DNA from: a virus
Lineage: Duplodnaviria; Heunggongvirae; Uroviricota; Caudoviricetes
Virus record (IMG/VR): IMGVR_UViG_2695420539_000016
Reading direction: 5' to 3' (one strand)
Length of the DNA: 37,459 nt
In this document: positions 2,502 to 37,459 of the stretch, piece by piece
How positions within the stretch are numbered: position 1 is the stretch's first letter
How the letters are laid out: each line of letters begins with the position of its first letter
The notes under the pieces: model-generated
What the model was told of the DNA's origin: nothing
The model's input: the letters and a program-made list of their open reading frames with translations, nothing else
Databases searched by the model: none
Position numbers and translations under genes: made by a program

Positions 2502-2509
2502 GGTAAACA

Positions 2510-5058: not shown

Positions 5059-5066
5059 GTATATCT

Positions 5067-5871: not shown

Positions 5872-5872
5872 A

Positions 5873-6262
5873 TTAACCCCCTATAGCGATATAACGACCT
5901 AATACAGCATTTGCAGCAGTCGCTATGCTTGAAAAACCGCGGAACTGATTTGATGTAATTGCAGAAGCCGACAGGATTCCTGCGCCTGAAGGTGTATGCC
6001 CCACATGACTAACTATCATTCCATAACATGCTGACGGAAAGGCAAAAGGAAAATCATTAAGATATCCGGCATCTTCACCACCAGACCCACCAAATCTCGC
6101 CTGCCCCCACTGAATAATCAGTGTTCTCCGGGAACCTGAAATAATTAACGGAATCGTTACATACCCATTCAGACCAATGACACCCGATGCAGTGCCAGCC
6201 AGAGATAATTCTCCCAAACCAACGTTTATGAAAATGCAGAAATAACGAGAAAATGGCATCAT
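5873..6262 (-). CDS. Tail-fibre variable C-terminal exon B (alternative receptor-binding domain) with the same 18-codon flank-derived leader
   Basis: Shares MMPFSRYFCIFINVGLGE with the exon A ORF, then a different Gly/Ser-rich C-terminal domain. Confidence 0.5.
   Translation of the reverse strand: MMPFSRYFCIFINVGLGELSLAGTASGVIGLNGYVTIPLIISGSRRTLIIQWGQARFGGSGGEDAGYLNDFPFAFPSACYGMIVSHVGHTPSGAGILSASAITSNQFRGFSSIATAANAVLGRYIAIGG
6209..6234. other. Crossover site ixR of the invertible segment, copy 1
   Basis: TTCTCCCAAACC-AA-CGTTTATGAAAA; inner half is the exact inverted repeat of the ixL inner half. Confidence 0.55.
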
Positions 6263-6288
6263 TCCTGCTTTTGTCAGAGGGAGCTACC

Positions 6289-6480
6289 ATGCTTATTGGC
6301 TATGTTTGCGTATCAACAAATGACCAGAAAATCGATCTACAACGTAATGCGTTGAACTGTGCAGGATGCGAGCTGATTTTTGAAGACAAGATAAGCGGTA
6401 CAAAGTCCGAGAGCCTAGGGCTGACAGTGCTGTTCTTGATGCAAATTAAAGGATTTAATAGTGAGTTGCGGCCTTACTAA
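6289..6480 (+). pseudogene. Truncated pin-type invertase stub (right-arm copy)
   Basis: Same as 4433..4624; GGGAG RBS then ATG; stop codon lies in the loop of the downstream hairpin. Confidence 0.75.
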
Positions 6481-6491
6481 TGTAAGGCCGC
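6468..6491. terminator. Hairpin between pin stub and GmrSD-like gene
   Basis: GCGGCCTTA-CTAATG-TAAGGCCGC, followed by TATAATCATTTTATT. Confidence 0.35.
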
Positions 6492-6513
6492 TATAATCAT
6501 TTTATTAATTGCA

Positions 6514-8403
6514 TTAATCGTATTTTGGCCATACTTTCAATGCAATTTCCCCCAACTTTTTACCTCGCTCCTGTATTTCACTCTCATCCCATTTATCCTT
6601 AAGTATAAGTGGTATGTTCAGTCGTAGATTGGTGTGGACGATGAGAGCATCACGTTTTTTCAGAAATACAGCATTCTGAACGGAACGGTTTACGCTAAGG
6701 TTAAGCAAAGTTAGATTTCCCAACGTAGCTATCGCTTGTTGCCGTTTCCTTACCAGTAGCTGTTCAGGGGTAAGATCGGTTCCAGACAGAACAATTTGGT
6801 TCATTACCGTAGCATCTGAATTTGTCACCATATGACCATTTTCGAGAGGCCAACAGGAATACCAACTTTGAGGCATAAGATGATCGATATCGAGATTAGA
6901 AAGATTTGGAACATCAGGCTTTTCTGTCTTCACTTGGCGACAAAGTTCTCTTTCAAGTTCCGTTAACATTGAGCGCATTTTCGGTGCGTCGAGCCTGCCA
7001 GGATAAAGTGGAGCATTGATGCAAGCGTTGAGAAATTCTGAGTCCCCAGGCCAACGTGAGGCTTCGCCATTTAAGCTATTGAGGATATTACGTAACTCAA
7101 CACTGGAAATTTCCGTTTTAGACAAGTGTCGCAATACATTCATAAATACATTGTTGTAATTCTTTGGCGTCAGGCCACATACGGATCTTCGTACTACGTA
7201 GGAGACAAGATCATTATACATGGCTGCTTTCTCATCATCGGCGATGTTAGCTATCGAAATGAACAAAGCAAGCGGATAGAGTGTCGTCACATCATAGGCT
7301 GCGATGCGATGTCCAAAGTGTGAGATGGGGGTTGTGCCAAAACCACCAACCAATTCTTTATATTGTGATGCATATTGTTTGAGGCGCTTTACTTGCAGAT
7401 CTGCTCGTTGTGAAGGCAAGTCCTTACTTACATAATCACGATACTCATTGTAAAGGCGAGACAGATCAATTTCACGCTGCCTTTCTGATTGCAATGTCGC
7501 ATGTACAAGCCACTCCATGCGTGGTTTATTAATACGTCCACGGCGTTGCTTTTCCGACCAGTATTTATCTTCAAAGATCTTCCACTCATTTTCATATAAT
7601 TCAATAGCATTAATATTTTCATGCTCAGCGCACATAAAGATATAGTTGCGAATAAGATCCGTTGCATGAAGTTCCGCTCCTCGCCCATTTAATGTTTCAA
7701 AAATTATTTGGGCATCATCTTCAGCTTCGAGAAATATGCTTACCAGTTTCAGATCCGTCAAGACAGCCTCAATTAGTGCTACAGCATTTTCTTGTGGTGA
7801 GTGGTTTTCTATTTTAATCCATTTTATAAAGGCTTCAGTAAAAAACCATAATGCCTCTAGTGACGGCGGGTGGTTGAAATGTTTACGTAACGTACCATGT
7901 TGCGTGAAGCTATCAGAAAATACATTACGGAGATCGTCAATATTATCAACATTAAGACTTTGAATAAAATGAGTTTGATCTCGAAAAGTTGGCCACAGTT
8001 TGAAGCATTCTACCTTTTTATTTCTCATCGTTGCTTCGTTTGTATTTTTCAAGCAAGTCAATACTAACCCTTCCAGTTCAGAAAGGCCTGTAGCACGCAA
8101 TGATAATCGAATGGATGCCAGAATATATTGAAGAGTGGTTAAACGTTGCTGGCCGTCAATAATATGTATGGTATCTACACCTAACAAGCTGTTTTTGAGT
8201 TGAGGTTCCAGCACCACCGCGCCGAGGAAATGAGGGGTTGGTTTTGTTCCCGAAAGTCGGCTCTGTGCTTTTTCGAAGATATCCTCCAACAAAGCTGACC
8301 ATTGGTTTCGTTGCGTCCATACGTAGGCACGTTGATAGAATGGAACACGATATTGTCGTTGATTTTGGAAAATTTGCTGGATGGTTAGCGTTTCGGATTT
8401 CAT
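6514..8403 (-). CDS. DUF262/DUF1524 GmrSD/BrxU-type candidate type IV restriction endonuclease (right-arm copy)
   Basis: Identical 629-aa translation to 2510..4399. Confidence 0.8.
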   Translation of the reverse strand: MKSETLTIQQIFQNQRQYRVPFYQRAYVWTQRNQWSALLEDIFEKAQSRLSGTKPTPHFLGAVVLEPQLKNSLLGVDTIHIIDGQQRLTTLQYILASIRLSLRATGLSELEGLVLTCLKNTNEATMRNKKVECFKLWPTFRDQTHFIQSLNVDNIDDLRNVFSDSFTQHGTLRKHFNHPPSLEALWFFTEAFIKWIKIENHSPQENAVALIEAVLTDLKLVSIFLEAEDDAQIIFETLNGRGAELHATDLIRNYIFMCAEHENINAIELYENEWKIFEDKYWSEKQRRGRINKPRMEWLVHATLQSERQREIDLSRLYNEYRDYVSKDLPSQRADLQVKRLKQYASQYKELVGGFGTTPISHFGHRIAAYDVTTLYPLALFISIANIADDEKAAMYNDLVSYVVRRSVCGLTPKNYNNVFMNVLRHLSKTEISSVELRNILNSLNGEASRWPGDSEFLNACINAPLYPGRLDAPKMRSMLTELERELCRQVKTEKPDVPNLSNLDIDHLMPQSWYSCWPLENGHMVTNSDATVMNQIVLSGTDLTPEQLLVRKRQQAIATLGNLTLLNLSVNRSVQNAVFLKKRDALIVHTNLRLNIPLILKDKWDESEIQERGKKLGEIALKVWPKYD

Positions 8404-8659
8404 TGTTTACCTATAAATAACATTAAGTGACATTCCACAAGAGTAAGAAATTCATCTGAGTCAGAACAATCATTTTTATGTAGTTATGATACAGTGTATT
8501 TGTTACTGGTGAAGTAAAAATAAGAAACCCCGCTTTTGAATGCTGACGCGCTACGGTTTCATTGGATATTTTTTGTCTCTCCTCCATCCCGTTGGTGTTC
8601 TGTTTAGACTGATAACTTGCTGTTTTAATTGATATTAGTTTCTTGCGCCGCCCAATCAT

Positions 8660-8685
8660 GGTTGGTGGGTTGGTGGGTGGGTGGG
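8660..8685 (+). repeat. G-quadruplex-type motif upstream of the GmrSD-like gene
   Basis: ggttggtgggttggtgggtgggtggg. Confidence 0.35.
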
Positions 8686-9221
8686 AGTTAAATCCACATT
8701 GGTATGAAGAACATAGAATATGAATTAGTGTTTCAGAATTGCTTCAGCCATCACTTTTTAATACGTTCAATTTGAATGTTTATTTCCGAAACAATTTTTT
8801 CAGGTTTCAGTCCCTCGTTAGATTGCACAAAATCTCTAATTTGCATCATTCGATGTGCACAAATTTGTAATTCGCTATAAACACTTAGCTCGTCAGATTC
8901 ATTTTGAGATTGTTCACCTGTTTAAAATTCTACATAAGTATGTGGCGGATTGTGATAAACACGAGAAATCGGGGTTGGCCACCATTCCTCACCGGTCACT
9001 ACGTCCGCATCGAATAGTACAGTTTTGTCAATTTCCATTAATTTCTGGATAAGAACAGAAGTTTTCAAGCGAACCTCCATTTTGCCATAAAGTGGTTATC
9101 AAAACGCTACGTAAACTATACAAAATCAGCGAGTTATGGTGAAGGTAAAAAAACAAGTTTAGATGTTCGTTAAGTATAAAATTGTTTTAATTCAATTGGA
9201 TATAATAATTTTCTAAATCTA

Positions 9222-9386
9222 ATGTTACGCCATATGGGCTGGACTGAAGCCGCAGACCTGATTGTTAAAGGTATGGAAGGCGCAATCAACGCCAAGACTG
9301 TAACCTATGACTTCGAACGTCTGATGGAAGGCGCTAAACTGCTGAAATGTTCAGAATTTGGTGATGCGATCATCAAGAACATGTAA
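9222..9386 (+). pseudogene. icdC: icd 3' fragment (icdC), prophage right attachment relic
   Basis: 54 codons encoding the Icd C-terminus; homology starts abruptly at 9222 after AT-rich phage-side DNA. Confidence 0.75.
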
Positions 9387-9408
9387 TCACTACATGTGTT
9401 TAATATTG

Positions 9409-9441
9409 CAACGGGCGTATAACACGCCCGTTGTTTTATTT
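9409..9441 (+). terminator. icd rho-independent terminator
   Basis: CAACGGGCG-TATAACA-CGCCCGTTG followed by TTTTATTT. Confidence 0.55.
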
Positions 9442-9488
9442 ATGTAGGTATTATTAATAGCATATCGAGCATATTTATATAAAACCCT

Positions 9489-9812
9489 TTACTTGAGCCC
9501 ATATGGGCATATTTTTATAATGCAACTATTATGCAAACATTTATTTGTTATTTTGCTTTCTCCTGGAGGACACTCTTGACTGCTTTTGAGTAGACTCCAT
9601 AAATCCTTGTTGAATGGTGCGATGTTATAAATAGTAATAGGATATTCTTTATCTTTAAGGATAATTCCAGATTTAACCGGTGTAAATATACTGCCAGGAG
9701 GGAGAAATATAGTAGATTGATACCAGATGATCATTTTCATATTACCCCATATGGCTGAAAAAGATATGCCGCATGAAGGTTGAATTATCGTGTCAATTAC
9801 TATCCACTTCAT
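9489..9812 (-). CDS. iraM: Anti-adaptor protein IraM (right-arm copy)
   Basis: Identical translation to 1101..1424. Confidence 0.65.
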
Positions 9813-10269
9813 TTGTTATGTCTTATCCCACGGTATTTAATATAGTTCATTTGGATGTTCATTTCTTTATTTTGCATATGAGTATATTACCCCTTCAAAA
9901 AATAAATTAATTAAAACGATTGCTTATATAAAACAAAATTTAAAGCAAGGAATCTCAATGGATGTTAAACAAAATGAGATTTAGTGAAAACAATAAATTA
10001 TTCACTTCGTTTTAGATTTGTTTAGCTATAATGTTATACATTCAAATGACTGAACATCCTGTAATTAAAACATAGCCTTTATGCTACTTTGTGCCAATTT
10101 GCTAAACATTATGGTTGCCTTTTTATATAACGATAATAATGAATATAAGCATGACATGAGAATAAGGTTTCAATTTTTGAGTTATATAGGAAAGGTTTAA
10201 CCTGTTCCTGGCTAAAATACATATAACTGGATGATGACTAAACCAAAACACATGTGCGTTAAGTATTGA

Positions 10270-10299
10270 AACGGGCGTATGGCACACCCGTTGTTTTTA
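10270..10299 (+). terminator. Second icd-terminator-like hairpin (diverged duplicate)
   Basis: AACGGGCG-TATGGCA-CACCCGTT then TGTTTTTAT; upstream bases also resemble the icd 3' UTR. Confidence 0.3.
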
Positions 10300-10507
10300 T
10301 AAATATATTAACCGTTATAAAATAACGTATAGAAAGTCAAGTGATCACATTTCAAATATCAATTTGATAGTATTGGCATGGTGATTATTTATGGGTAGCA
10401 ATAAAAGGACAGTATTTATCATCCATAGGGATAGTCTCTGTACTTTTATTCCCATTATGCTAATGCCTTACTGAATTATGAAGCATTTCTTAAGCATCCA
10501 ACTTTAG

Positions 10508-10912
10508 CTAGATTAATGGTTTATTATTTTCTACATCTTCAATATATAAAAGCGTATTATCAATGGCGTAGTAACTGCGTTTGTTATGATTAACATCAGT
10601 AACCCACCGGAAAACGCCCGCGCCTGCTAGTGTTGAACAGTATTCCCGAAATGTAGATTTTCCGCAAATATGAAGCAATGCGGCCTCTTTTATTTTAGCA
10701 GGGTTCTTGGTCGTACTAACTTTTAACAGGTTCCTGGTTCCTCTTAATAACAAAACCGTGTCATCGTGAGTAATAATTCTGATGTTATCCGTAGCCAGAT
10801 AATAAATGTAATGTGCAATACGGTGATGTTTTAATTCTGAATAAAACCAGGAGAAGTTTTGCTCTTTTCTCACTTGCTCAAACATCTTTTGAAAAACAAC
10901 GACCTGATCCAT
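10508..10912 (-). CDS. ycgX: YcgX-like small protein (right-arm copy)
   Basis: Identical translation to 1..405; GAGG RBS lies at 10913+ so the gene context continues naturally past the visible palindrome edge. Confidence 0.5.
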   Translation of the reverse strand: MDQVVVFQKMFEQVRKEQNFSWFYSELKHHRIAHYIYYLATDNIRIITHDDTVLLLRGTRNLLKVSTTKNPAKIKEAALLHICGKSTFREYCSTLAGAGVFRWVTDVNHNKRSYYAIDNTLLYIEDVENNKPLI

Positions 10913-24879: not shown

Positions 24880-25050
24880 ATGTTTGTGAAACCTGTTAAA
24901 GGGCGGTCAGTGCCTGACCCTGCCCGCAGCGACCTTTTGCCCGCCGAAGGGCGAAATGTTGACGAGAACAACTACTGGCTGCGCCGTGAAGCAGCTGGTG
25001 ATATCCGGCGCGTGAATAAAAAGGTGAACACCGATGACGATAAGCTTTAA
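24880..25050 (+). CDS. Small conserved-position protein (56 aa) overlapping the sheath start; not in the ORF track (below length cutoff)
   Basis: ATG 24880 with GAGGAT RBS; translates MFVKPVKGRSVPDPARSDLLPAEGRNVDENNYWLRREAAGDIRRVNKKVNTDDDKL. Confidence 0.35.
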   Translation: MFVKPVKGRSVPDPARSDLLPAEGRNVDENNYWLRREAAGDIRRVNKKVNTDDDKL

Positions 25051-26530
25051 CACCATTCCGTCGAATACGCTGGTTCCGCTGTTTTATGCGGAAATGGATA
25101 ACCAGGCGGCGAATACTGCACAGGACAGCGGAGCATCGCTGCTGATTGGTCATGCCAGTAACGGTGCAGAGATTGTTGCCAACAGTCTGGTGCTGATGCC
25201 GTCGGCAGACTATGCACGCCAGATTTGTGGTGCGGGAAGTCAGCTGGCGCGTATGGTCGAGGCTTATCGCCAGACCGACCCGTTTGGTGAGCTGTATGTG
25301 ATTGCCGTTCCGGAAGCCACAGGCGCGGCGGCAACGGTTACGCTGACGGTGACCGGGGAAGCAACCGAAAGCGGCACGGTGAATGTCTATGTGGGACGTA
25401 CCCGCGTGCAGGCTCCGGTGACCAACGGCGATAACGTCACGACGATTGCCAGCAGTATCAAAGATGCCATCAATGCCGTTCCGGCCCTGCCGTTTACGGC
25501 TTCATCTTCGGCAGGTGTGGTCACACTGACCGCGCGTCATAAGGGGCTTTGCGGGAATGAAATTCCTGTCAGCCTCAATTACTACGGCTTTGGTGGGGGC
25601 GAAGTGCTGCCAGCGGGCGTACAGATTGCCGTGGCGACGGGTACCGCCGGAACGGGTGCTCCGGTTCTCACCGGCGCGGTGGCTGCAATGGCGGATGAGC
25701 CGTTTGATTATATCGGCCTGCCGTTCAACGACACGGCCTCCGTTAACACGCTGGTGACCGAGATGAACGATACCAGCGGTCGCTGGAGCTATGCGCGTCA
25801 GCTGTATGGTCATGTGTATACGGCAAAGATCGGCACGCTGTCAGAACTGGTGACCGCAGGTGACCAGTTTAACCAGCAGCACATTACCCTGGCGGGGTAC
25901 GAAAAAGAGACCCAGACGCCTGCCGACGAACTGGCGGCAAGCCGTACCGCCCGCGCAGCGGTGTTTATTCGCAACGATCCGGCACGTCCCACGCAGACCG
26001 GTGAGCTGGTGGGTATGCTGCCTGCGCCGAAGGGGAAACGGTTCACGATGACCGAACAACAGACCCTGCTGTCTCATGGCGTGGCAACGGCGTATGTCGA
26101 AAGCGGGGTACTGCGCATTCAGCGTGATGTCACCACGTACAGGAAAAACGCTTACGGGGTTGCGGATAACAGCTACCTCGACAGTGAGACACTGCATACC
26201 AGCGCGTATGTACTGCGCAAACTGAAATCCGTCATTACCAGTAAGTACGGGCGTCACAAGCTTGCCAGTGACGGTACCCGCTTTGGTCCCGGTCAGGCGA
26301 TTGTCACCCCGGCGGTGATCAAAGGGGAACTGCTGGCAACCTACCGTCAGCTTGAGCGTGCGGGGATCGTGGAAAACTACGAACTGTTTAAGCAGTACCT
26401 GGTTGTGGAGCGTGATGCCAGCGATCCGAACCGCCTGAACACGCTGTTCCCGCCTGACTATGTTAACCAGTTGCGTGTCTTTGCCGTGGTTAACCAGTTC
26501 CGTCTTCAGTATTCAGAGGAGTCTGCATAA
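25034..26530 (+). CDS. Contractile tail sheath protein (Mu gpL-like)
   Basis: 498 aa followed by tube gene. Confidence 0.85.
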   Translation: MTISFNTIPSNTLVPLFYAEMDNQAANTAQDSGASLLIGHASNGAEIVANSLVLMPSADYARQICGAGSQLARMVEAYRQTDPFGELYVIAVPEATGAAATVTLTVTGEATESGTVNVYVGRTRVQAPVTNGDNVTTIASSIKDAINAVPALPFTASSSAGVVTLTARHKGLCGNEIPVSLNYYGFGGGEVLPAGVQIAVATGTAGTGAPVLTGAVAAMADEPFDYIGLPFNDTASVNTLVTEMNDTSGRWSYARQLYGHVYTAKIGTLSELVTAGDQFNQQHITLAGYEKETQTPADELAASRTARAAVFIRNDPARPTQTGELVGMLPAPKGKRFTMTEQQTLLSHGVATAYVESGVLRIQRDVTTYRKNAYGVADNSYLDSETLHTSAYVLRKLKSVITSKYGRHKLASDGTRFGPGQAIVTPAVIKGELLATYRQLERAGIVENYELFKQYLVVERDASDPNRLNTLFPPDYVNQLRVFAVVNQFRLQYSEESA

Positions 26531-26886
26531 TGGCCCGTATCGGGGGAACCTGTTATTTCAAAATTGACGGTCAGCAGCTATCGCTGACCGGCGGCATTGA
26601 GGTGCCCATGAACAGGACGGTCAATGATGACATCATCGGCCTGGACGGTTCAGTGGACCGCAAGGAAACTCACCGTGCGCCCTATGTCAAAGGGACCTTC
26701 AAGGTGCCGAAGAATTTTCCGGTGAGCAAAATCACCTCGTCTGATGAGATGACCATCACTGCCGAGCTGGCGAACGGTCAGGTCTATGTACTGTCGTCTG
26801 CCTGGCTGCACGGCGAAGCGAACCATAATGCCGAAGAAGGCACGGTTGATCTTGAGTTCCACGGTGAAGAAGGGGATTACCAGTAA
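26530..26886 (+). CDS. Tail tube protein (Mu gpM-like)
   Basis: 118 aa. Confidence 0.75.
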   Translation: MARIGGTCYFKIDGQQLSLTGGIEVPMNRTVNDDIIGLDGSVDRKETHRAPYVKGTFKVPKNFPVSKITSSDEMTITAELANGQVYVLSSAWLHGEANHNAEEGTVDLEFHGEEGDYQ

Positions 26887-27155
26887 TGAAAGAGCTTGAG
26901 TTAAAGAAACCGATTACTGCTCATGGCGAGACACTCTCCGTACTTGAGTTTGATGAGCCCACCGGGAAAGATGTCCGCGAGCTGGGGTATCCCTACCAGA
27001 TGAATCAGGATGAGTCAGTCAGACTTCTGGCGCATGTGGTATCGAAATACATTGTGCGGCTGGCGAAAGTGCCGCAAAACTCTGTCGACCAGATGTCTCC
27101 GGCAGACCTGAATGCAGCGGCGTGGCTTGTGGCCGGTTTTTTCCTCCAGGCCTGA
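26886..27155 (+). CDS. Tail assembly chaperone (short form)
   Basis: 89 aa directly upstream of the tape measure gene. Confidence 0.6.
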   Translation: MKELELKKPITAHGETLSVLEFDEPTGKDVRELGYPYQMNQDESVRLLAHVVSKYIVRLAKVPQNSVDQMSPADLNAAAWLVAGFFLQA

Positions 27156-27304
27156 CGGCTGAATACCTCACTGATCGCTTCTTTGACTGCGCCAGTTACT
27201 GGCGCATTAATCCTTTCGAATTGCTGAATATGCCGATCAGTGAAATTCCCTTGCTGGTCAGTCAGGCAAACAGGATAGAGCAGGAGAAACGCACACATGG
27301 CTGA
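26886..27304 (+). CDS. Tail assembly chaperone frameshift-extended form (G/GT-like fusion)
   Basis: -1 slip at 27137..27143 joins ...VAGFF to PPGLTAEYLTDRF... Confidence 0.5.
27137..27143 (+). other. -1 programmed ribosomal frameshift slippery heptamer T_TTT_TTC
   Basis: Zero-frame codons GGT TTT TTC; the -1 frame continues open to 27304. Confidence 0.5.
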
Positions 27305-29129
27305 ATTTGAGCTTAAGGCGTTGATCACCGGTGTCGACAGACTTTCTCCCGCGCTGTCGAAAATGCAAAAGAAAATCCGGGGATTTAAACGCCAGGCGGA
27401 AGAAGCATCACAGGGTGGGCTGGCGCTTGGTGGCGGACTGGCAGCGGGTCTGACGCTTTCCCTGAAATCTTATGCCGATCAGGAAAACGCCGCCACCGGG
27501 CTGAAAGTCGCCATGATGGATGCGAACGGCGAGGTCGGAAAGAGCTTTCAGGACATCAATAAACTGGCTATTGGCCTGGGTAACCAGCTACCCGGTACAA
27601 CGGCTGATTTCCAGAACATGATGCAGATGCTGGTGCGTCAGGGGATCCCGGCAGAAAATATTCTTGGCGGTGTGGGTAAAGCGACAGCTTATCTTGCGGT
27701 ACAACTGAAAAAAACACCGGAAGCGGCTGCTGAGTTTGCTGCAAAGATGCAGGATGCTACCGGAACGGCGTCAGAAGACATGATGGGGCTGTTCGACACT
27801 ATCCAGAAGGCGTTTTATCTGGGCGTTGACGATACCAACATGTTGTCCTTCTTCACTAAAACCAGTTCTGTTCTGAAGATGGTGAACAAGGACGGTCTTC
27901 AGGCTGCACAGAGCCTTGCCCCCATCAGCGTCATGATGGATCAGATGGGGATGAACGGGGAGTCGGCAGGTAATGCCCTGCGAAAAGTTATCCAGTCCGG
28001 ATTAAGCGTTAAGAAAATCAGGGACGTTAATAAAGTTATGGCCCGCCAGAAACTCGGGGTACAGCTCGATTTTACTGACGGCAAAGGGAGTTTTGGCGGT
28101 CTTGATAACATGTTCAGGCAACTGGCAAAGCTGCGAAAACTGACCGACGTTAAGCGAACCGGTGTACTTAAGGCAATATTTGGTGATGATGCCGAAACCC
28201 TTCAGGTGGTCAATGCTCTGATCGATAAAGGAAAGGATGGTTACGATCAGATCCAGCAGAAGATGAATAAACAGGCCAGCCTGAATAAACGTGTTCAGGC
28301 CCAGCTTGGTACGCTGTCCAACCTGTGGGAGGCAATGACGGGGACCGCAACTAACGGCCTTGCGGCTATTGGCGGCGCATTTTCTGGTGACGTCAAAAAT
28401 ATCACGCAATGGCTGGGGGAGTTAGGGGAAAAATTCACGAAGTTTGCGGATGAAAATCCCCGGGTTATTCGCGGCGTCGTCGGGCTTGCTGCCGGTCTTG
28501 CGATTCTGAAACTGGGATTGATGGGCGTGGGCAGTGCCATCAGTATCGTCAGCAGGATCATGTCGATGACGCCGATTGGCATGATTGCGACGGCGATAGC
28601 CCTGGCTGCGGGATTAATTATCACTAACTGGGATGTTGTCGGACCTTATTTTAAGAAGCTCTGGGAAACCATTAGTCCTTATTTTGAGGCTGGCTGGGAA
28701 CTTCTGAAGAAGGTTTTTGCCTGGTCGCCGCTGGGGATGGTGATCAATAACTGGGGACCGGTTGTTAAGTGGTTTCAGGATATGTGGGATAAGCTGAAGC
28801 CGATTATTGAATGGTTTACCGACAGTTCCGGTGACACGGTCGATGCCATTAACTCGGCGCAGTGGGGCGCGGGTGCTTATGATGCTTATGGGACGGGAAT
28901 ACCGCCACGGGGATACACTCCTTATCCGGAGGTGGATCCGGCTCAGGCAAACAACGCCTCCGGTGCCACAGGTCCGAATCCCTTCATGATTAATAAAGCT
29001 ACCGCGCCAAAAGTTGATGGTGAGATCAAGGTATCATTTATAAATATGCCACCAGGTATGCGGGTTACGGAAACACGCTCCAGTGGCATTGATATAAATC
29101 ACGATGTTGGCTATACCCGATTTTGGTAG
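27297..29129 (+). CDS. Tail tape measure protein
   Basis: 610 aa, Ala/Gly-rich with hydrophobic central region. Confidence 0.8.
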   Translation: MAEFELKALITGVDRLSPALSKMQKKIRGFKRQAEEASQGGLALGGGLAAGLTLSLKSYADQENAATGLKVAMMDANGEVGKSFQDINKLAIGLGNQLPGTTADFQNMMQMLVRQGIPAENILGGVGKATAYLAVQLKKTPEAAAEFAAKMQDATGTASEDMMGLFDTIQKAFYLGVDDTNMLSFFTKTSSVLKMVNKDGLQAAQSLAPISVMMDQMGMNGESAGNALRKVIQSGLSVKKIRDVNKVMARQKLGVQLDFTDGKGSFGGLDNMFRQLAKLRKLTDVKRTGVLKAIFGDDAETLQVVNALIDKGKDGYDQIQQKMNKQASLNKRVQAQLGTLSNLWEAMTGTATNGLAAIGGAFSGDVKNITQWLGELGEKFTKFADENPRVIRGVVGLAAGLAILKLGLMGVGSAISIVSRIMSMTPIGMIATAIALAAGLIITNWDVVGPYFKKLWETISPYFEAGWELLKKVFAWSPLGMVINNWGPVVKWFQDMWDKLKPIIEWFTDSSGDTVDAINSAQWGAGAYDAYGTGIPPRGYTPYPEVDPAQANNASGATGPNPFMINKATAPKVDGEIKVSFINMPPGMRVTETRSSGIDINHDVGYTRFW

Positions 29130-29157
29130 CCAGGATTCCCCTCACAGGTATTGCTGG

Positions 29158-29185
29158 TTGTAAGTCATAAATAGAGTGATAGAAT
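29158..29185 (+). promoter_or_regulatory. Candidate sigma70 promoter of moron 3
   Basis: TTGTAA, 16-bp spacer, TAGAAT. Confidence 0.35.
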
Positions 29186-29220
29186 TAATGCACATTTAGA
29201 AAAATGTTAATAGGCGAAAA

Positions 29221-29751
29221 ATGAAAGGCTATATCACAGCAAGTGTAATTCTTGGAGCAGCGGCTATTTTTTCATCTCTCATAATCTCTGGCAACATCTC
29301 CTTTAAAGATGAACATATTATTCAGTTATCTGGAGGAGCCATAAAACTTGGTGATGTTTATAAAGAAAATAAATTGATAAGTGCAAAGATTATTTTTCCA
29401 GATAATCAGGGTGAACAGATTCTTGTTGTCGACGGCAATCCTGAAAACTTTAAGGAGGATTTTCAGGAGAAATTAAATAAAGTAATAAAAACTTTAAATG
29501 CGTCAAAGAAAAAAGATGAAGAGAAAGTTAGCCTGGATAATTTAAGTGTTATTGAAGAGTCTAAACTAGAGCTCGTTTCTGCGGTGCGTTACTCTGCTCA
29601 GTATGTTCCTATGTTTACTCTGACGCTGGACAAAAAAGAAATTACCATGCCTAAAAATACGGTAATATTTCCATTTGCCAGCGATGAAACAGCTAAGTAT
29701 TTAAATGAACAACAGCAAAAGTATAAAGATTCGTTGTTTCTGACTCGCTAA
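29221..29751 (+). CDS. Signal-anchored/secreted hypothetical protein (moron 3); candidate superinfection-exclusion factor
   Basis: 176 aa with hydrophobic N-terminus MKGYITASVILGAAAIFSSLIISG, Lys/Glu-rich remainder; AT-rich island inside the tail operon. Confidence 0.5.
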   Translation: MKGYITASVILGAAAIFSSLIISGNISFKDEHIIQLSGGAIKLGDVYKENKLISAKIIFPDNQGEQILVVDGNPENFKEDFQEKLNKVIKTLNASKKKDEEKVSLDNLSVIEESKLELVSAVRYSAQYVPMFTLTLDKKEITMPKNTVIFPFASDETAKYLNEQQQKYKDSLFLTR

Positions 29752-29771
29752 TTAATAAAATTCATTACAAG

Positions 29772-29798
29772 GCCACCTTCTAATAGGTGGCTTTTTAA
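29772..29798 (+). terminator. Rho-independent terminator of moron 3
   Basis: GCCACCT-TCTAAT-AGGTGGC then TTTTTAATTTT. Confidence 0.6.
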
Positions 29799-29812
29799 TT
29801 TTCGGAGTATAT

Positions 29813-31141
29813 ATGACGTGGAAAGACAGGCTTCAGGACGCGTCATTTCGCGGCGTGCCGTTTAAGGTTGAAGAAGAAAGTGCGGGAACCGGTCGCCGTG
29901 TGGAAACACATGAATACCCGAACCGCGACAAACCCTATACCGAAGACCTGGGGAAAATCACTTTTCGCCCGTCCATCACGGCTTATGTGGTGGGAGATGA
30001 CTGCTTTGACCAGCGCGATCGCCTGATTGAAGCGCTGAATAAACCAGGTCCCGGCACGCTTGTCCACCCGACATATGGTGAGCTGAAAGTCTGTGTTGAC
30101 GGGGAAGTTCGGGTCAGCACATCGAAAAGTGAAGGGCGTATTGTCCGCTTTGACCTGAAGTTTGTCGAAGCAGGAGAACTCTCTTACCCCACATCAGGTG
30201 CGGCGACGGCGCAGACGCTGATGTCATCCTGTTCTGCACTGGATGACTGCATCAGTGACAGCTTCAGCGGTTTCAGTATCGATGGTGTGGCGGATTTCGT
30301 GCAGAACGACGTTATCGGTAATGCCAGCATAATGCTGGGGTATGTTTCTGATGCGATGAAAGTGGTGGATTCTGCCGTATCGGATGCCGCCAGGCTGTTG
30401 CAGGGGGATATCTCGGTACTTCTGCCGCCGCCATCGTCAGGCAAAAATTTCGTTGAACAGGTGCAGAAAATGTGGCGTACCGGGAAACGCCTTTATGGTA
30501 ACGCCAGCGACCTGGTCACCATGATCAAAACGCTTTCTGGTGTCAGCCTCGGCAGCGATTTGCAACCGCGCGGCGTCTGGAAAACGGACAGTAAAACCAC
30601 CGCCACAGCGACGCAGCAGCGTAACATGGTTGCCAGCACCCTTCGTACGACTGCAATCAGCGAAGCGGCGTATGCCGTTACCCGATTGCCTGCGCCAACA
30701 ACTTCTGCGGTGATGCAGAATGCCGCAGTGGGGCAGTCAACAACACCCGCGCAGAGCTCCGGCTGGCCTGCCGTCACGCATCCGGTGCTGAACAATGCAC
30801 CGGCGGTAAAAAACACGGTTGACCTGCCAACGTGGGAAGAACTGACCGACATTCGCGACACACTGAATACGGCAACTGATAAGGAGTTGTCCCGTACAAC
30901 CAGTGATGCGCTGTTTCTGGCGCTGCGCCGGGTGAAAGCAGATCTGAATGCGGATATCAACACGCGCCTTGAACAGTCTGCACGGATCATTCAGCGCACG
31001 CCGGATGAGGTTTTACCCGCGCTGGTGCTGGCGGCGACCTGGTTTGATAACGCGGCGCGTGACGCGGACATTATCCGGCGTAATGCCATTACGCATCCCG
31101 GCTTTGTGCCGGTGATCCCTCTGAAGGTGCCAGTGCAATGA
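29813..31141 (+). CDS. DNA circularisation protein (Mu gpN-like)
   Basis: 442 aa; position after the tape measure. Confidence 0.7.
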   Translation: MTWKDRLQDASFRGVPFKVEEESAGTGRRVETHEYPNRDKPYTEDLGKITFRPSITAYVVGDDCFDQRDRLIEALNKPGPGTLVHPTYGELKVCVDGEVRVSTSKSEGRIVRFDLKFVEAGELSYPTSGAATAQTLMSSCSALDDCISDSFSGFSIDGVADFVQNDVIGNASIMLGYVSDAMKVVDSAVSDAARLLQGDISVLLPPPSSGKNFVEQVQKMWRTGKRLYGNASDLVTMIKTLSGVSLGSDLQPRGVWKTDSKTTATATQQRNMVASTLRTTAISEAAYAVTRLPAPTTSAVMQNAAVGQSTTPAQSSGWPAVTHPVLNNAPAVKNTVDLPTWEELTDIRDTLNTATDKELSRTTSDALFLALRRVKADLNADINTRLEQSARIIQRTPDEVLPALVLAATWFDNAARDADIIRRNAITHPGFVPVIPLKVPVQ

Positions 31142-34813: not shown

Positions 34814-35470
34814 ATGCATCGTATAGACACGAAAACCGCGCAGAAGGATAAGTTCGGCGCGGGTAAGAACGGTTTTACCCGTGGTAACCCCCAGACCGGC
34901 ACGCCTGCCACCGATCTGGATGATGACTACTTTGACATGTTGCAGGAAGAGCTCTGCAGCGTGGTGGAGGCATCCGGTGCCAGCCTGGAGAAGGGGCGGC
35001 ATGACCAGCTGCTTACCGCGCTTCGTGCGCTGCTGTTAAGTCGCAAAAATCCGTTTGGCGATATCAAATCGGACGGCACGGTGAAAACGGCTCTTCAAAA
35101 CCTTGGTTTGGGAGAAGCGGCAAAACGGAATGTAGGTAACGGGCAAAACCAAATTCCGGATATGGCGGCGTTTGCCAGTTCACTTTCATCAACGGGTTTT
35201 CAAAAACTCCCTTCAGGTCTGATTATTCAGTGGGGTATTGTCAGTGGAGCATCAAACTATACGGTGACTTACCCGGTAACATTCCCAAATCGTTCACTTG
35301 CGCTGTTGGCTGTGCCACATACAACGTCGTTGGCTGGTATATCTGCAATGGGCATTGCGAACTGTTCTGATATCACCAAATCACAGTTCTATATAATTGT
35401 TGGCGGTATATCTCAGGGAGAAATTGTCAAATATGAAAGGTCCTGTTTTTGGGTAGCAATCGGTGTATAG
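34814..35470 (+). CDS. Tail fibre protein: constant N-terminal part fused across ixL to variable C-terminal exon A
   Basis: 218 aa; N-terminus [29 protein letters not shown] typical of P2 H / Mu S / e14 Stf fibres; crossover site lies at codons 93-101. Confidence 0.8.
35091..35116. other. Crossover site ixL (Hin/Gin/Pin-type, native context)
   Basis: CTCTTCAAAACC-TT-GGTTTGGGAGAA; left half matches 10 of 12 to hixL TTCTTGAAAACC as I recall it. Confidence 0.6.
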
Positions 35471-35478
35471 GTATATCT

Positions 35479-35874
35479 ATGATTTATTTCTCAAAATCGA
35501 CTAATGGTTTTTTCTTTGATGGTATAAACAGCGACATGCCTGCTGACATTGTTGAGATAAGTACAGACTTATACAATGAATTAATTGCCGGACAGCAGGA
35601 AGGGGGTAAATTAATCACGTCAGATGAAAATGGTTTACCGGTACTGAAATCTCCGGCGATTGATTATGTCGCACGTGCTGAAAATCAGCGAATGCAGTTA
35701 CTTGCTCATGCCGATAATGTCACAGCTGACTGGCGAGTGGAATTAATGCTTGGTGATATCAGCAGTACAGATAAAGAAAAACTATCCGCCTGGATGGACT
35801 ACAAAAAAGAAGTAAAAGCCGTCGACACTTCGACGGCTCCTGAGATTAGCTGGCCTGAGTTACCGGAGGTGTAG
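35479..35874 (+). CDS. Tail fibre assembly protein (Tfa)
   Basis: Identical to 5067..5462. Confidence 0.75.
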   Translation: MIYFSKSTNGFFFDGINSDMPADIVEISTDLYNELIAGQQEGGKLITSDENGLPVLKSPAIDYVARAENQRMQLLAHADNVTADWRVELMLGDISSTDKEKLSAWMDYKKEVKAVDTSTAPEISWPELPEV

Positions 35875-36283
35875 GCCATTCAATATCTGGAGCACTGGAG
35901 GTATCCACCAGTTCCAGTGCGTCCAGGTAATCCAGCCACAAATTATATAGTGCCAGTTCCTCGTCTTTCAGACGACCAATAGCGGCTTTACCGGGCCATT
36001 GTTTACTGTTCATGTATTCGTTGGCCTGATTAAGCAATAATTGCCTTTCTGATTCTGCCTGTTGAATAAGTTCTTCATGCGATGGTGGAGGTATTAGTGC
36101 CCATGTGGGTAATCCATTTTTTCCTGCAACACGAATTTTGTCATATGGGGGCGTATTGATTGCAAATTCATTATAAACATCATCACTGACAGCCAGAGCA
36201 TCATCTGGCCATGAATTTGCATTAATGTAATCATCCTTAAGCGCAGGATTCACAAAAATGTTTAATGATGGACTATAAAACAT
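35846..36283 (-). CDS. Tail fibre assembly protein (Tfa')
   Basis: Identical to 5434..5871. Confidence 0.75.
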   Translation of the reverse strand: MFYSPSLNIFVNPALKDDYINANSWPDDALAVSDDVYNEFAINTPPYDKIRVAGKNGLPTWALIPPPSHEELIQQAESERQLLLNQANEYMNSKQWPGKAAIGRLKDEELALYNLWLDYLDALELVDTSSAPDIEWPTPPVTQAS

Positions 36284-36284
36284 A

Positions 36285-36632
36285 TTAACCCCCTATAGCG
36301 ATATAACGACCTAATACAGCATTTGCAGCAGTCGCTATGCTTGAAAAACCGCGGAACTGATTTGATGTAATTGCAGAAGCCGACAGGATTCCTGCGCCTG
36401 AAGGTGTATGCCCCACATGACTAACTATCATTCCATAACATGCTGACGGAAAGGCAAAAGGAAAATCATTAAGATATCCGGCATCTTCACCACCAGACCC
36501 ACCAAATCTCGCCTGCCCCCACTGAATAATCAGTGTTCTCCGGGAACCTGAAATAATTAACGGAATCGTTACATACCCATTCAGACCAATGACACCCGAT
36601 GCAGTGCCAGCCAGAGATAATTCTCCCAAACC
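36285..36632 (-). CDS. Silent alternative tail-fibre C-terminal exon B (expressed only after inversion)
   Basis: Identical to the exon in 5873..6262; the current orientation leaves it without the constant region. Confidence 0.55.
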   Translation of the reverse strand, partial: GLGELSLAGTASGVIGLNGYVTIPLIISGSRRTLIIQWGQARFGGSGGEDAGYLNDFPFAFPSACYGMIVSHVGHTPSGAGILSASAITSNQFRGFSSIATAANAVLGRYIAIGG

Positions 36633-36646
36633 AACGTTTATGAAAA
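36621..36646. other. Crossover site ixR, copy 2
   Basis: Same as 6209..6234. Confidence 0.55.
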
Positions 36647-36700
36647 TGCAGAAATAACGAGAAAATGGCATCATTCCTGCTTTTGTCAGAGGGAGCTACC

Positions 36701-36892
36701 ATGCTTATTGGCTATGTTTGCGTATCAACAAATGACCAGAAAATCGATCTACAACGTAATGCGTTGAACTGTGCAGGATGCGAGCTGATTTTTGAAGACA
36801 AGATAAGCGGTACAAAGTCCGAGAGCCTAGGGCTGACAGTGCTGTTCTTGATGCAAATTAAAGGATTTAATAGTGAGTTGCGGCCTTACTAA
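36701..36892 (+). pseudogene. Truncated pin-type invertase stub (third copy)
   Basis: Identical to 6289..6480. Confidence 0.75.
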
Positions 36893-36903
36893 TGTAAGGC
36901 CGC
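36880..36903. terminator. Hairpin between pin stub and GmrSD-like gene (third copy)
   Basis: Identical to 6468..6491. Confidence 0.35.
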
Positions 36904-36925
36904 TATAATCATTTTATTAATTGCA

Positions 36926-37459
36926 TTAATCGTATTTTGGCCATACTTTCAATGCAATTTCCCCCAACTTTTTACCTCGCTCCTGTATTTCACTCTCATC
37001 CCATTTATCCTTAAGTATAAGTGGTATGTTCAGTCGTAGATTGGTGTGGACGATGAGAGCATCACGTTTTTTCAGAAATACAGCATTCTGAACGGAACGG
37101 TTTACGCTAAGGTTAAGCAAAGTTAGATTTCCCAACGTAGCTATCGCTTGTTGCCGTTTCCTTACCAGTAGCTGTTCAGGGGTAAGATCGGTTCCAGACA
37201 GAACAATTTGGTTCATTACCGTAGCATCTGAATTTGTCACCATATGACCATTTTCGAGAGGCCAACAGGAATACCAACTTTGAGGCATAAGATGATCGAT
37301 ATCGAGATTAGAAAGATTTGGAACATCAGGCTTTTCTGTCTTCACTTGGCGACAAAGTTCTCTTTCAAGTTCCGTTAACATTGAGCGCATTTTCGGTGCG
37401 TCGAGCCTGCCAGGATAAAGTGGAGCATTGATGCAAGCGTTGAGAAATTCTGAGTCCCC
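36926..37459 (-). CDS. GmrSD/BrxU-type DUF262/DUF1524 gene, 3' portion (gene runs off the window end)
   Basis: C-terminal residues identical to the 629-aa protein. Confidence 0.75.
   Translation of the reverse strand, partial: GDSEFLNACINAPLYPGRLDAPKMRSMLTELERELCRQVKTEKPDVPNLSNLDIDHLMPQSWYSCWPLENGHMVTNSDATVMNQIVLSGTDLTPEQLLVRKRQQAIATLGNLTLLNLSVNRSVQNAVFLKKRDALIVHTNLRLNIPLILKDKWDESEIQERGKKLGEIALKVWPKYD

What the first reader, a model, noticed from the sequence alone, without database searches (positions are those of the whole stretch)
29158..29798. Self-contained moron inside the tail operon encoding a signal-anchored protein
Between the tape measure and DNA-circularisation genes lies an AT-rich island with a near-consensus promoter (TTGTAA, 16 bp, TAGAAT), a 176-aa ORF with a hydrophobic N-terminus and Lys/Glu-rich body, and a clean terminator. 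Envelope-located morons within tail gene clusters are frequently superinfection-exclusion proteins that block DNA entry of competing phages.
Basis: partly seen in the sequence, partly recalled or inferred. Interest (0 to 1): 0.55.

Follow-up and report, generated by a model that had tools for sequence, protein, structure and literature searches.

The report
Exported-protein moron in prophage tail operon
An optional, foreign-looking gene cassette sits between two tail genes of an E. coli prophage and encodes an exported protein of an unstudied family that is most likely an anti-phage (entry-blocking) factor, though no experiment has tested this.

Summary
Window 29130-29812 is a 34% GC island between the tape-measure gene (PF10145) and the DNA-circularisation gene (PF07157). 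The host is an SfV/e14-like E. coli prophage. The island holds a 176-aa ORF (29221-29751), a promoter-like site and a strong hairpin terminator.

It is optional. SfV, SfI and SfII have the slot empty. Other E. coli prophages carry four unrelated cargos there, three of them also envelope proteins. The terminator belongs to the slot, because empty sites have one too.

The protein has an N-terminal export helix with N-in/C-out topology and no lipobox. A confident AlphaFold model (pLDDT 91.7) has no solved-structure match. Its only significant hit is a Pseudomonas phage lipoprotein.

The family (PHROG 5485) has 77 cluster representatives and is under purifying selection. Members recur as low-GC inserts next to tape-measure or hub genes in two tail lineages. 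Others lie in satellite-like islands beside an Mrr nuclease, beside a restriction-modification-like cluster, and as a lone survivor of a decayed Lelliottia prophage.

It is therefore not a tail component. Superinfection exclusion at DNA entry is the best reading (about 0.5) but is inferred only. The protein is unrelated to HK97 gp15 or to any Pfam or PADLOC family.

The parts
27297..29129 (+). Tail tape measure gene (610 aa). It forms the left border of the variable slot.
   Evidence: PF10145 PhageMin_Tail, E 9.8e-27. RefSeq annotates it as a tape measure protein in the identical locus L001. Homology with empty-slot relatives ends in its last few codons, at about 29118.
29130..29812 (+). Low-GC cargo cassette filling the whole tape-measure / DNA-circularisation intergenic slot.
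   Evidence: GC is 0.34 against 0.51-0.57 in the flanks. The cassette is present in 179 of 5426 complete E. coli genomes at >=99% identity in 180 of 181 records. The slot is empty in SfV, SfI and SfII and holds other cargos elsewhere. The cassette averages 99.6% identity to the window in 65 loci, while the flanking kilobases average 97.7% and 96.6%.
29158..29185 (+). Sigma-70 promoter-like site: -35 TTGTAA, 16-nt spacer, TG-extended -10 TAGAAT.
   Evidence: The pattern scan scores 9 of 12 positions with TG before the -10, and the count in the region is not above shuffles. No polymorphism falls in 29151-29215 among 72 copies in 35 haplotypes. Function as a promoter is inferred, not shown.
29212..29214 (+). 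Weak Shine-Dalgarno element (AGG), 6 nt upstream of the ATG.
   Evidence: Read directly from the sequence.
29221..29751 (+). ORF of 176 aa (WP_000679479.1). It belongs to an uncharacterised family, PHROG 5485.
   Evidence: phrog_5485 matches over the full length, E 3.8e-108. A profile search finds 77 cluster representatives. Within E. coli there are 14 synonymous and 8 nonsynonymous polymorphic sites and no stop or indel in 72 copies.
29224..29289 (+). N-terminal export helix, residues 2-23. It is either a signal anchor or an uncleaved or cleaved Sec signal. There is no lipobox.
   Evidence: Hydropathy is 2.1. AlphaFold models residues 2-23 as a helix. The segment is conserved in nearly all full-length members. 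The N flank is more positive than the C flank in 58 of 61 members, and only 1 of 61 has a lipobox-like motif.
29302..29748 (+). Predicted periplasmic alpha/beta domain, residues 28-176: strands within 32-72, helix 74-93, beta-hairpin 114-143, helix 149-171.
29769..29798 (+). Intrinsic terminator: a 10-bp hairpin plus T run, immediately upstream of the ribosome-binding site of the next tail gene.
   Evidence: -17 kcal/mol, z -6.15. An equivalent hairpin plus T run is present in all slot variants, including the empty one. The SfII record annotates it as a terminator.
29813..31141 (+). DNA circularisation (Mu N-like) tail gene. It forms the right border of the slot.
   Evidence: PF07157 DNA_circ_N, E 8.4e-34.

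Best explanation
The feature is a moron. It is an optional, horizontally acquired cargo cassette occupying a polymorphic hot-spot between the tape-measure gene and the Mu-N-like DNA-circularisation gene of an SfV/e14-type temperate myophage.

Its product is exported through the Sec pathway by an N-terminal hydrophobic helix. This places a roughly 150-residue alpha/beta domain in the periplasm. The domain is tethered to the inner membrane if the helix is not cleaved.

The most likely function is inferred, not shown. The lysogen would make the protein from the cassette's own promoter. During lytic growth it would also be made by antiterminated read-through of the tail operon. It would block superinfecting phages at genome entry. 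It could do so by binding tail-tip or tape-measure proteins as they are ejected into the periplasm. Alternatively it could mask a periplasmic or inner-membrane host factor that those proteins need.

It works like HK97 gp15, T4 Imm/Sp or P22 SieA, but it is not a member of any of those families.
For: Shown:
- It is optional. SfV, SfI, SfII and 689R6 have an empty slot, as do about 26 of 60 sampled E. coli records.
- It is compositionally foreign, at 34% GC.
- The same slot holds four other unrelated low-GC cargos. Three of them are envelope proteins: a signal-peptide protein, a lipoprotein, and a TM-anchored OB-fold protein on the opposite strand. The fourth is a cytoplasmic bPH_1 protein.
- The protein family is real and constrained. 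There are 77 cluster representatives of uniform length, and 14 synonymous against 8 nonsynonymous polymorphisms. Orthologues at 41-58% identity lie in Leclercia and metagenome contigs (52-58%) and in Edwardsiella (41%); where the flanks were read they occupy the same slot.
- Export signal and N-in/C-out topology are supported.

Context that points to an accessory, anti-phage role:
- Distant members are low-GC inserts in other tail operons. One (29% identity) sits between the tape-measure and N genes (L108). One sits between the tail chaperone and the tape measure on the opposite strand (L107), which is the position of HK97 gp15. One sits between hub and spike genes of an E217-like tail (L106).
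- Other members lie in satellite-like integrative islands beside an Mrr nuclease.
- One lies directly after a UvrD/PDDEXK, methyltransferase and ResIII gene cluster.
- In Lelliottia amnigena an intact copy survives alone at icd, with about 190 nt of the tape-measure 3' end, after loss of the prophage.
- In E. coli the cassette is 5-8 times less diverged than its flanks. This indicates recent spread across phage backgrounds.
- The same prophage carries a GmrSD type IV restriction gene.

Precedent: HK97 gp15 is a tail-operon moron next to the tape-measure gene. It inserts in the inner membrane and blocks genome entry in a tail-dependent way (PMC3594210).
Against: - No experiment or expression data exist. 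No paper in the searchable library mentions the protein's accession.
- No sequence or fold similarity to any characterised exclusion or defence protein was found: Pfam none at E<=1, PADLOC none, NCBIfam none, HK97 gp15 BLASTP E 17 and hhalign probability 0.2%, and no PDB match.
- The promoter match is not above chance by count, so expression from the repressed prophage is unproven. An AT-rich island might also be silenced by H-NS.
- One alternative cargo of the slot (bPH_1) is cytoplasmic, so the slot is not restricted to envelope functions.
- Guilt by association with defence genes rests on a handful of contigs. One of these members is borderline (P0099, E 5e-4).
- No isolated phage among 50,697 records carries a family member, using four different tblastn queries. 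No phage phenotype can therefore be borrowed from published work.
Confidence: 0.5

Rival explanations
1. It is an anti-phage cargo that acts after entry. The exported or membrane protein would sense or bind a phage component, such as the tape measure, and then abort infection or block assembly. Examples would be membrane depolarisation, or action in the manner of Tab/Tai-type tail-assembly blockers. It would not stop DNA entry.
For: The same context evidence applies as for the main explanation. Prophage morons that target tape-measure proteins at the assembly step are known: Tab (PMC10884400) and Tai (PMC11364771).
Against: The conserved export signal and N-in/C-out topology put the folded domain in the periplasm. 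Tails assemble in the cytoplasm. The protein has a single helix and no recognisable effector domain.
Confidence: 0.15
2. It is a lysogenic-conversion factor that benefits the host in ways unrelated to phages. It would be an envelope protein affecting serum resistance, adhesion, stress tolerance or colonisation, like lambda Bor or Lom.
For: The protein is envelope-located, prophage-borne and retained after prophage decay in Lelliottia. Its hosts are gut and animal-associated Enterobacterales such as E. coli, Edwardsiella and Leclercia. Morons with such roles are documented (PMC3594210).
Against: Distant members occur in marine Pseudomonas-type genomes and environmental metagenomes. There they sit on satellite-like elements and beside nucleases or restriction-modification-like genes. 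Members are repeatedly inserted next to tape-measure or hub genes in two tail lineages. There is no similarity to Bor, Lom or any other Pfam family.
Confidence: 0.2
3. It is an immunity-type protein against a periplasm-acting toxin such as a colicin, a contact-dependent inhibition toxin or a type VI effector. It would be carried as phage cargo.
For: It is a small periplasm-facing protein tethered to the membrane, which is the typical build of such immunity proteins (general knowledge). It is mobile cargo with patchy distribution.
Against: No toxin gene lies adjacent in any context examined. No structural match to known immunity proteins was found.
Confidence: 0.08
4. It is a non-essential tail accessory or ejected membrane-inserting protein. 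It would be made with the tail genes and help this phage's own infection.
For: It lies on the same strand inside the late tail operon, and its terminator could be read through under antitermination. An antitermination protein is encoded in the prophage. Family members sit among tail-tip genes in two tail lineages. It has an N-terminal hydrophobic helix.
Against: It is absent from infectious relatives. Unrelated cargos replace it in the slot, including a cytoplasmic protein and a gene on the opposite strand. One family member is itself on the strand opposite to the tail operon. Members occur outside phages and as a solitary remnant. It is low in GC. No tail-related Pfam or PHROG family matches.
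Confidence: 0.07

Closest known systems
HK97 gp15 (YebO family), the first described moron and a superinfection-exclusion protein
   Same: It is a low-GC cassette inside a tail operon next to the tape-measure gene, followed by a terminator annotated as putative. The product has an N-terminal hydrophobic segment that targets the inner membrane. gp15 blocks genome entry in a tail-dependent way (PMC3594210). One distant member of the present family sits at the gp15 position, between the chaperone and the tape measure.
   Different: There is no sequence relationship: BLASTP E 17 and hhalign probability 0.2%. gp15 has 62 aa with almost no extramembrane domain. This protein has 176 aa with a folded domain of about 150 residues predicted to be periplasmic. 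The host phage is a contractile-tailed SfV/Mu-like phage, not a siphovirus. Function here is untested.
T4 Imm and Sp, P22 SieA (membrane proteins that block DNA injection)
   Same: These are phage-encoded inner-membrane or periplasm-facing proteins acting at genome entry (from general knowledge; SieA also in PMC10883804, abstract only). That is the proposed mode of action here.
   Different: No Pfam family matched the protein at E<=1, and no solved structure matched. Those genes are not tail-operon morons. The resemblance is functional analogy only.
Lipoprotein exclusion proteins (T5 Llp, phi80/N15 Cor, TP-J34 Ltp)
   Same: These are envelope-tethered extracytoplasmic domains made by phages to stop further infection. 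[quoted passage not shown] One alternative cargo of this very slot is a lipoprotein. The only significant fold match of this protein is annotated as a phage lipoprotein (Pseudomonas phage ventosus).
   Different: This protein has no lipobox and no Cys in its N-terminal region. There is no sequence similarity to any Pfam family.
Defence hot-spots of P2-like phages and P4-like satellites (Rousset et al. 2022, cited in PMC10884400)
   Same: A fixed position between conserved phage genes holds many alternative, unrelated, low-GC cargos. Here there are at least five cargo types plus the empty state. Family members also sit in variable regions of satellite-like islands.
   Different: This hot-spot lies inside the tail operon of SfV/e14-like phages. 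Its cargos are single small genes, mostly envelope proteins, and none matches a PADLOC defence model. No cargo of this slot has a demonstrated function.
PHROG 5485
   Same: Full-length match, E 3.8e-108, covering 176 of 176 positions. This protein is a member.
   Different: The PHROG has no annotated function, so membership adds no mechanism.

Membership tests
Moron (Juhala/Hendrix sense) | Inserted between two genes that are adjacent in related phages | tested here: met
   The tape-measure and N genes are about 60 bp apart in SfV, SfI, SfII, vB_EcoM-689R6 and E. coli 23CRST007.
Moron (Juhala/Hendrix sense) | Base composition different from the surrounding genes | tested here: met
   GC is 0.34 against 0.51-0.57. 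The same holds for orthologues and distant members inside tail operons.
Moron (Juhala/Hendrix sense) | Own promoter | tested here: inconclusive
   A TG-extended match of 9 of 12 positions lies at 29158-29185, but the number of such matches in the region is not above shuffles. The region is invariant in 72 copies. Upstream regions of orthologues are not alignable, though each contains promoter-like hexamers.
Moron (Juhala/Hendrix sense) | Own terminator | tested here: met
   A strong hairpin plus T run is present. A terminator is also present in the empty slot, so it is a feature of the site.
Moron (Juhala/Hendrix sense) | Expressed from the repressed prophage | not testable with these tools
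   This needs RNA-seq, 5'-RACE or a reporter fusion in a lysogen.
HK97 gp15 / YebO family | Sequence homology to gp15 / YebO | tested here: not met
   BLASTP E 17. Profile comparison gives probability 0.2%. No Pfam hit at E<=1.
Characterised superinfection-exclusion or defence families (Pfam, PADLOC, NCBIfam models) | Match to any curated model | tested here: not met
   Pfam 0 families, PADLOC 0, NCBIfam 0, PDB sequence profile none below E 0.48.
Superinfection-exclusion protein (functional class) | Lysogen or expressing cell resists phages without repressor immunity; adsorption normal, DNA entry blocked | not testable with these tools
   This requires plating, adsorption and DNA-injection assays.
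Superinfection-exclusion protein (functional class) | Located in the cell envelope | tested here: met
   This is by prediction only. A conserved N-terminal hydrophobic helix is present, and the positive-inside rule is met in 58 of 61 members. SignalP/TMHMM and PhoA fusions were not available.
Bacterial lipoprotein (Llp/Cor/Ltp-type exclusion) | Lipobox with invariant Cys after the signal sequence | tested here: not met
   The protein has no Cys. A lipobox-like motif occurs in only 1 of 61 family members.
Phage tail structural or assembly protein | Conserved in all phages sharing the tail module; homology to tail families | tested here: not met
   It is absent from SfV, SfI and SfII and from about half of the sampled E. 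coli loci. No tail-related Pfam or PHROG family matches. Members also occur outside phages.
PHROG 5485 | Full-length profile match | tested here: met
   E 3.8e-108 over positions 1-176 of 176. The function of the PHROG is unknown.

The most novel reading that the evidence does not exclude
The family is a new class of periplasm-facing blockers of genome injection that recognise the ejected tape-measure or tail-tip complex. Their genes are kept next to tape-measure or hub genes so that the exclusion specificity travels with the tail module during mosaic recombination. On this reading, the slot between the tape-measure and N genes of SfV/e14-like phages is a previously undescribed hot-spot of envelope-acting anti-phage cargos. 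It holds at least five types, and none is in current defence catalogues.
Probability: 0.22. Interest if true: 0.7.

Novelty: new member of a known kind. Interest (0 to 1): 0.45.

Why it matters
If the protein blocks phage entry, it adds a structurally new family to the short list of envelope-level exclusion proteins. The family has no match to any solved structure.

It would also mark a specific, easily recognised slot in a common group of E. coli and Shigella prophages as a source of further candidates. This tail module is found in about one in five complete E. coli genomes. The other candidates are a 164-aa secreted protein, a 225-aa lipoprotein, a TM-anchored OB-fold protein and a bPH_1 protein.

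Such proteins influence which therapeutic or environmental phages can infect a strain, and current defence-finding tools miss them.

The repeated placement next to tape-measure genes gives a testable handle on how contractile-tailed temperate phages move DNA across the periplasm.

If the protein has no phage phenotype, the finding remains an ordinary uncharacterised moron.

Tried and rejected
- **Family annotation:** Pfam, NCBIfam and PADLOC scans of the protein gave nothing. PHROGs gave only an unannotated family.
- **Isolated phages:** tblastn of the protein and three diverse family members against 50,697 phage records found no match.
- **First structure model:** a model built on 14 close homologues was poor (pLDDT 63). 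It was replaced by a 61-sequence alignment model.
- **HK97 gp15 homology:** rejected.
- **Locus searches:** The search for related loci with the diverse alignments failed because there was no conserved stretch. With the close alignment it gave one Edwardsiella locus. Two distant members gave nothing in viral contigs.
- **Rfam:** only two sub-threshold leader-family hits that overlap the terminator. These are chance matches.
- **Neighbour in the Pseudomonas-type island:** the 180-aa upstream neighbour is not a paralogue.
- **Literature:** searches for the accession, for morons at this position and for hot-spots in tail operons found no description of this protein or slot. The SfIV paper describes a different moron, between Q and the lysis genes.
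- **Considered and rejected:**
  - A core tail gene: it is optional.
  - A spanin or lysis gene: the lysis cassette is elsewhere.
  - A lipoprotein: there is no Cys.
  - A non-coding or spurious ORF: rejected on conservation and the confident fold.
Full report
**1. What is there**

The window around the finding is the tail operon of a temperate myophage. The gene order is sheath (25034-26530), tube (26530-26886, PF10618), tail chaperone (26886-27155, PF10109), tape measure (27297-29129, PF10145), the ORF in question (29221-29751), a Mu-N-like DNA circularisation gene (29813-31141, PF07157) and baseplate genes.

The identical region lies in E. coli AMSHJX01. There it belongs to a prophage next to a partial icd gene, with lambdoid early genes, an HK97-type head and a Mu-type tail, and the ORF is WP_000679479.1, 'hypothetical protein'. 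The closest isolated phages are the Shigella serotype-converting phages SfV, SfI and SfII.

- a 34% GC island in 51-57% GC surroundings;
- TTGTAA, a 16-nt spacer, then TG-n-TAGAAT at 29158-29185;
- a 176-codon ORF with a hydrophobic N-terminus;
- a 10-bp hairpin with a T run at 29769-29798 that folds at -17 kcal/mol, z = -6.15.

No ORF of 40 aa or more lies on the other strand of the island. No RNA family reaches its threshold there.

**2. Two corrections to the observation**

The promoter matches 9 of 12 positions, and such matches are no more frequent in the region than in shuffled sequence. The motif alone is weak evidence. What supports it is that no variant falls between 29151 and 29215 in 72 independent copies, while variants occur on either side.

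The terminator is not the cassette's private property. A hairpin plus T run sits just upstream of the N gene's ribosome-binding site in every version of this intergenic region, including the empty one. The SfII record annotates it as a rho-independent terminator.

Homology with empty-slot relatives stops in the last codons of the tape-measure gene and resumes at the T run. The exchangeable unit therefore runs from the tape-measure stop codon to the hairpin.

**3. It is optional cargo in a polymorphic slot**

The cassette is present in 179 of 5426 complete E. coli genomes, at 99% identity or more in 180 of 181 records. At least part of its flanks is found in 1096 genomes.

I took an evenly spaced sample of 60 of the 1104 matching records. 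I checked six of them by annotation and classified the rest by span and feature names. The sample splits as follows:

| Slot content | Rows of 60 |
|---|---|
| This gene | 10 |
| Empty slot (genes about 60 bp apart) | 26 |
| 164-aa protein | 7 |
| 'OB-fold protein' | 3 |
| 'PH domain-containing protein' | 2 |
| 225-aa protein | 1 |
| Only the N gene matched | 10 |
| Only a 93-nt fragment of the N gene matched | 1 |

The figure for this gene scales to about 184 records. That agrees with the direct count of 181 and so validates the sampling.

The isolated phages SfV, SfI, SfII and vB_EcoM-689R6 have the empty form. SKA5 carries a hypothetical-protein cargo with the same span as the 164-aa type, and Edwardsiella phage EPP-1 has a 125-aa cargo.

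All four alternative cargos examined are low in GC, at 31-42%. Their nature is as follows:
- the 164-aa protein has a classic signal peptide;
- the 225-aa protein has a lipobox (LLGGC);
- the OB-fold protein (PF12869) has an N-terminal hydrophobic helix and lies on the opposite strand;
- the bPH_1 protein (PF08000) has no export signal.

None of the five cargos matches a PADLOC defence model.

**4. The protein**

A single-sequence search found only about 25 clusters. These were E. coli copies and 52-58% identical 173-174-aa proteins from Leclercia, Lelliottia and metagenomes.

A profile of 14 of these, scored against 1.84 billion representative proteins, found 77 representatives at E<=1e-3 and 48 at E<=1e-10. 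Nearly all full-length ones are 165-200 aa, and nearly all begin with a hydrophobic segment.

Across 61 diverse members:
- G44 and Y124 are invariant, and G39, L43, E49, N93 and L134 are nearly so;
- the N-terminal flank is more positive than the C-terminal flank of the hydrophobic segment in 58 of 61;
- only 1 of 61 has a lipobox-like motif;
- the remainder of the protein is Cys-free in 57 of 61.

These features predict export with the C-terminal domain in the periplasm.

Whether the helix stays as an anchor is open. The uncharged stretch has a median of 22 residues, and AlphaFold models residues 2-23 as one helix, which favours an anchor. Small residues at position 23 in close homologues, and shorter hydrophobic stretches in distant ones, would allow cleavage. 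That is my reading. SignalP was not available.

With the 61-sequence alignment AlphaFold2 gives a confident model (pLDDT 91.7, pTM 0.76). It has strands between residues 32 and 72, helix 74-93, a long beta-hairpin 114-143 and helix 149-171.

The protein is unrelated to HK97 gp15.

**5. Evidence on selection and mobility**

In 65 viral-contig loci that hold the cassette with full flanks, the cassette is on average 99.6% identical to the window. The last kilobase of the tape-measure gene averages 97.7% and the first kilobase of N averages 96.6%. The cassette has therefore spread recently across diverged phage backgrounds.

Among 72 ungapped copies (35 haplotypes) the ORF has 14 synonymous and 8 nonsynonymous polymorphic sites and no stop or frameshift. 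Nonsynonymous sites are roughly three times as numerous as synonymous ones. This therefore indicates purifying selection; the ratio is my rough estimate.

Orthologues at 41-58% identity occupy the same slot in a Leclercia pneumoniae genome, in unnamed contigs carrying the Leclercia adecarboxylata-type protein, and, judged from ORF layout, in Edwardsiella.

**6. Context of family members elsewhere**

- L108 (29% identity): the same position between tape-measure and N genes in another Mu-type tail.
- L107 (23% identity, E 2e-7): between the tail chaperone and the tape-measure gene of an E217/PhiTE-type tail, on the strand opposite to the operon. It must therefore have its own promoter. This is the position of HK97 gp15.
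- L106 (30% identity): between hub-type and spike genes of an E217-type tail.
- All three are low-GC inserts followed by hairpins. Two of the hairpins (L106, L108) are followed by T runs.
- L013-L016 (23% identity; named Pseudomonas sp. in one record): islands of roughly 10 kb with integrase or serine recombinase, a resolvase, and in one case a DUF5906 protein. The gene lies beside an Mrr-type nuclease and another exported protein, and not in a tail operon.
- L109 (borderline member, E 5e-4): directly after a UvrD/PDDEXK helicase-nuclease, an N6/N4 methyltransferase and a ResIII/TnsA-like protein.
- L110: a small element with a resolvase, an HTH protein, CsrA and an integrase.
- L022, Lelliottia amnigena: an intact copy stands alone next to icd. 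About 190 nt of the tape-measure 3' end lie upstream, its hairpin lies downstream, and the rest of the prophage is gone.

Together these contexts exclude a structural tail role. They show a cargo gene that is retained on its own and travels with defence-type genes.

**7. Mechanism**

Shown:
- it is an optional cassette;
- it encodes a constrained protein with an export signal and a folded extracytoplasmic domain;
- family members are repeatedly placed beside tape-measure or tail-tip genes and beside nucleases or restriction-modification-like genes.

Inferred:
- it is transcribed in the lysogen from the 29158-29185 promoter;
- it is also transcribed late, by read-through, because the prophage encodes an antitermination protein;
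- its periplasmic domain interferes with the step at which an incoming phage's tape-measure or tail-tip proteins cross the periplasm and open the inner membrane.

The precedent is HK97 gp15. It is a tail-operon moron next to the tape-measure gene whose product inserts in the inner membrane and blocks entry in a tail-dependent manner (PMC3594210). Recent work also shows that membrane-located defences can associate with tape-measure proteins during injection (SNIPE, PMC13190303, abstract).

I put 0.5 on exclusion at entry. The rivals, with their probabilities:
- 0.15: another anti-phage mode;
- 0.20: a host-fitness envelope factor;
- 0.08: a toxin-immunity role;
- 0.07: a tail accessory.

That it is an accessory moron encoding an exported protein I hold at about 0.9.

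**8. Novelty and score**

Morons in tail operons and envelope-level exclusion proteins are well known, so the kind is not new. The family itself is uncharacterised (PHROG 5485, no Pfam model) and has no solved-structure relative. I found no description of this slot as a multi-cargo hot-spot in the searchable literature.

I rate it a new member of a known kind, interest 0.45. It is a good, cheap experimental candidate, but it is not surprising to a specialist until a phenotype is shown.

Noticed in passing
window 1-10912 and 35094-37459: The window has an unusual structure. There is a perfect 4704-bp inverted repeat (1-4704 against 6209-10912). In addition, 35094-37459 repeats 4681-7047 at 99.9%. 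Compared with E. coli AMSHJX01, host-flank DNA (GmrSD gene, icd fragment, iraM, ycgX) appears in both orientations around the tail-fibre/invertase segment. It then joins abruptly at 11397/11399 to the middle of the prophage early region. This is either a palindromic assembly artefact around the invertible segment or a real rearrangement.
   Followed up: partly
window 2510-4399 (+) and its duplicate 6514-8403 (-): A 629-aa GmrSD-type type IV (modification-dependent) restriction enzyme. It matches PF03235 plus PF07510, and PADLOC mREase_IV at 1523.7 bits over the full length. In AMSHJX01 the gene lies between the tail-fibre/recombinase region and the icd fragment. The same prophage therefore appears to carry a known defence gene at its end.
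   Followed up: partly
L022 4800-5560 (Lelliottia amnigena, next to icd): A 53%-identical, intact 174-aa homologue survives alone beside icd. About 190 nt of the tape-measure 3' end lie upstream and its hairpin lies downstream. The rest of the prophage has been lost. The cargo gene has apparently been domesticated.
   Followed up: yes
L002 10013-11808, also L003, L004, L005 and L023: In the contigs that carry the Leclercia adecarboxylata-type protein (P0012) or P0008, two extra genes lie between the DNA-circularisation gene and the baseplate P-like gene. They encode 503-520 aa and 94 aa and have no Pfam or PADLOC match. These two genes are adjacent in E. coli. This is a second variable slot in the same tail operon.
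   Followed up: partly
L006, L007, L008, L010 (E. coli); L018 (Edwardsiella phage EPP-1); L019 (phage SKA5): Other prophages hold four other unrelated low-GC cargos in the same slot between the tape-measure and N genes. They are a bPH_1 protein (125 aa), a TM-anchored OB-fold PF12869 protein on the opposite strand (148 aa), a signal-peptide protein (164 aa) and a lipoprotein (225 aa). None has a known function or a PADLOC match.
   Followed up: partly
L009 905-960 and L017 2116-2154 (empty slot in E. coli and SfII): Even without cargo, the 60-bp spacer between the tape-measure and N genes contains a GC-rich hairpin plus T run, in the middle of the late tail operon. The stem sequence differs between slot variants while the position is fixed. 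Its role is unexplained. It might attenuate downstream tail genes or act as a landing site for cargo.
   Followed up: no
L013 7401-7943 and L016 7774-7974: In the Pseudomonas-type islands, the family member is immediately preceded on the same strand by another exported or membrane protein. In L013 this is a 180-aa protein with a signal peptide. In L016 it is a 66-aa protein with two hydrophobic segments. Neither is related to the family. They may be partner genes.
   Followed up: no
E. coli plasmid records: Four of the 184 places that hold the cassette are on plasmid records rather than chromosomes. These could be phage-plasmids or misassigned contigs. I did not examine them.
   Followed up: no
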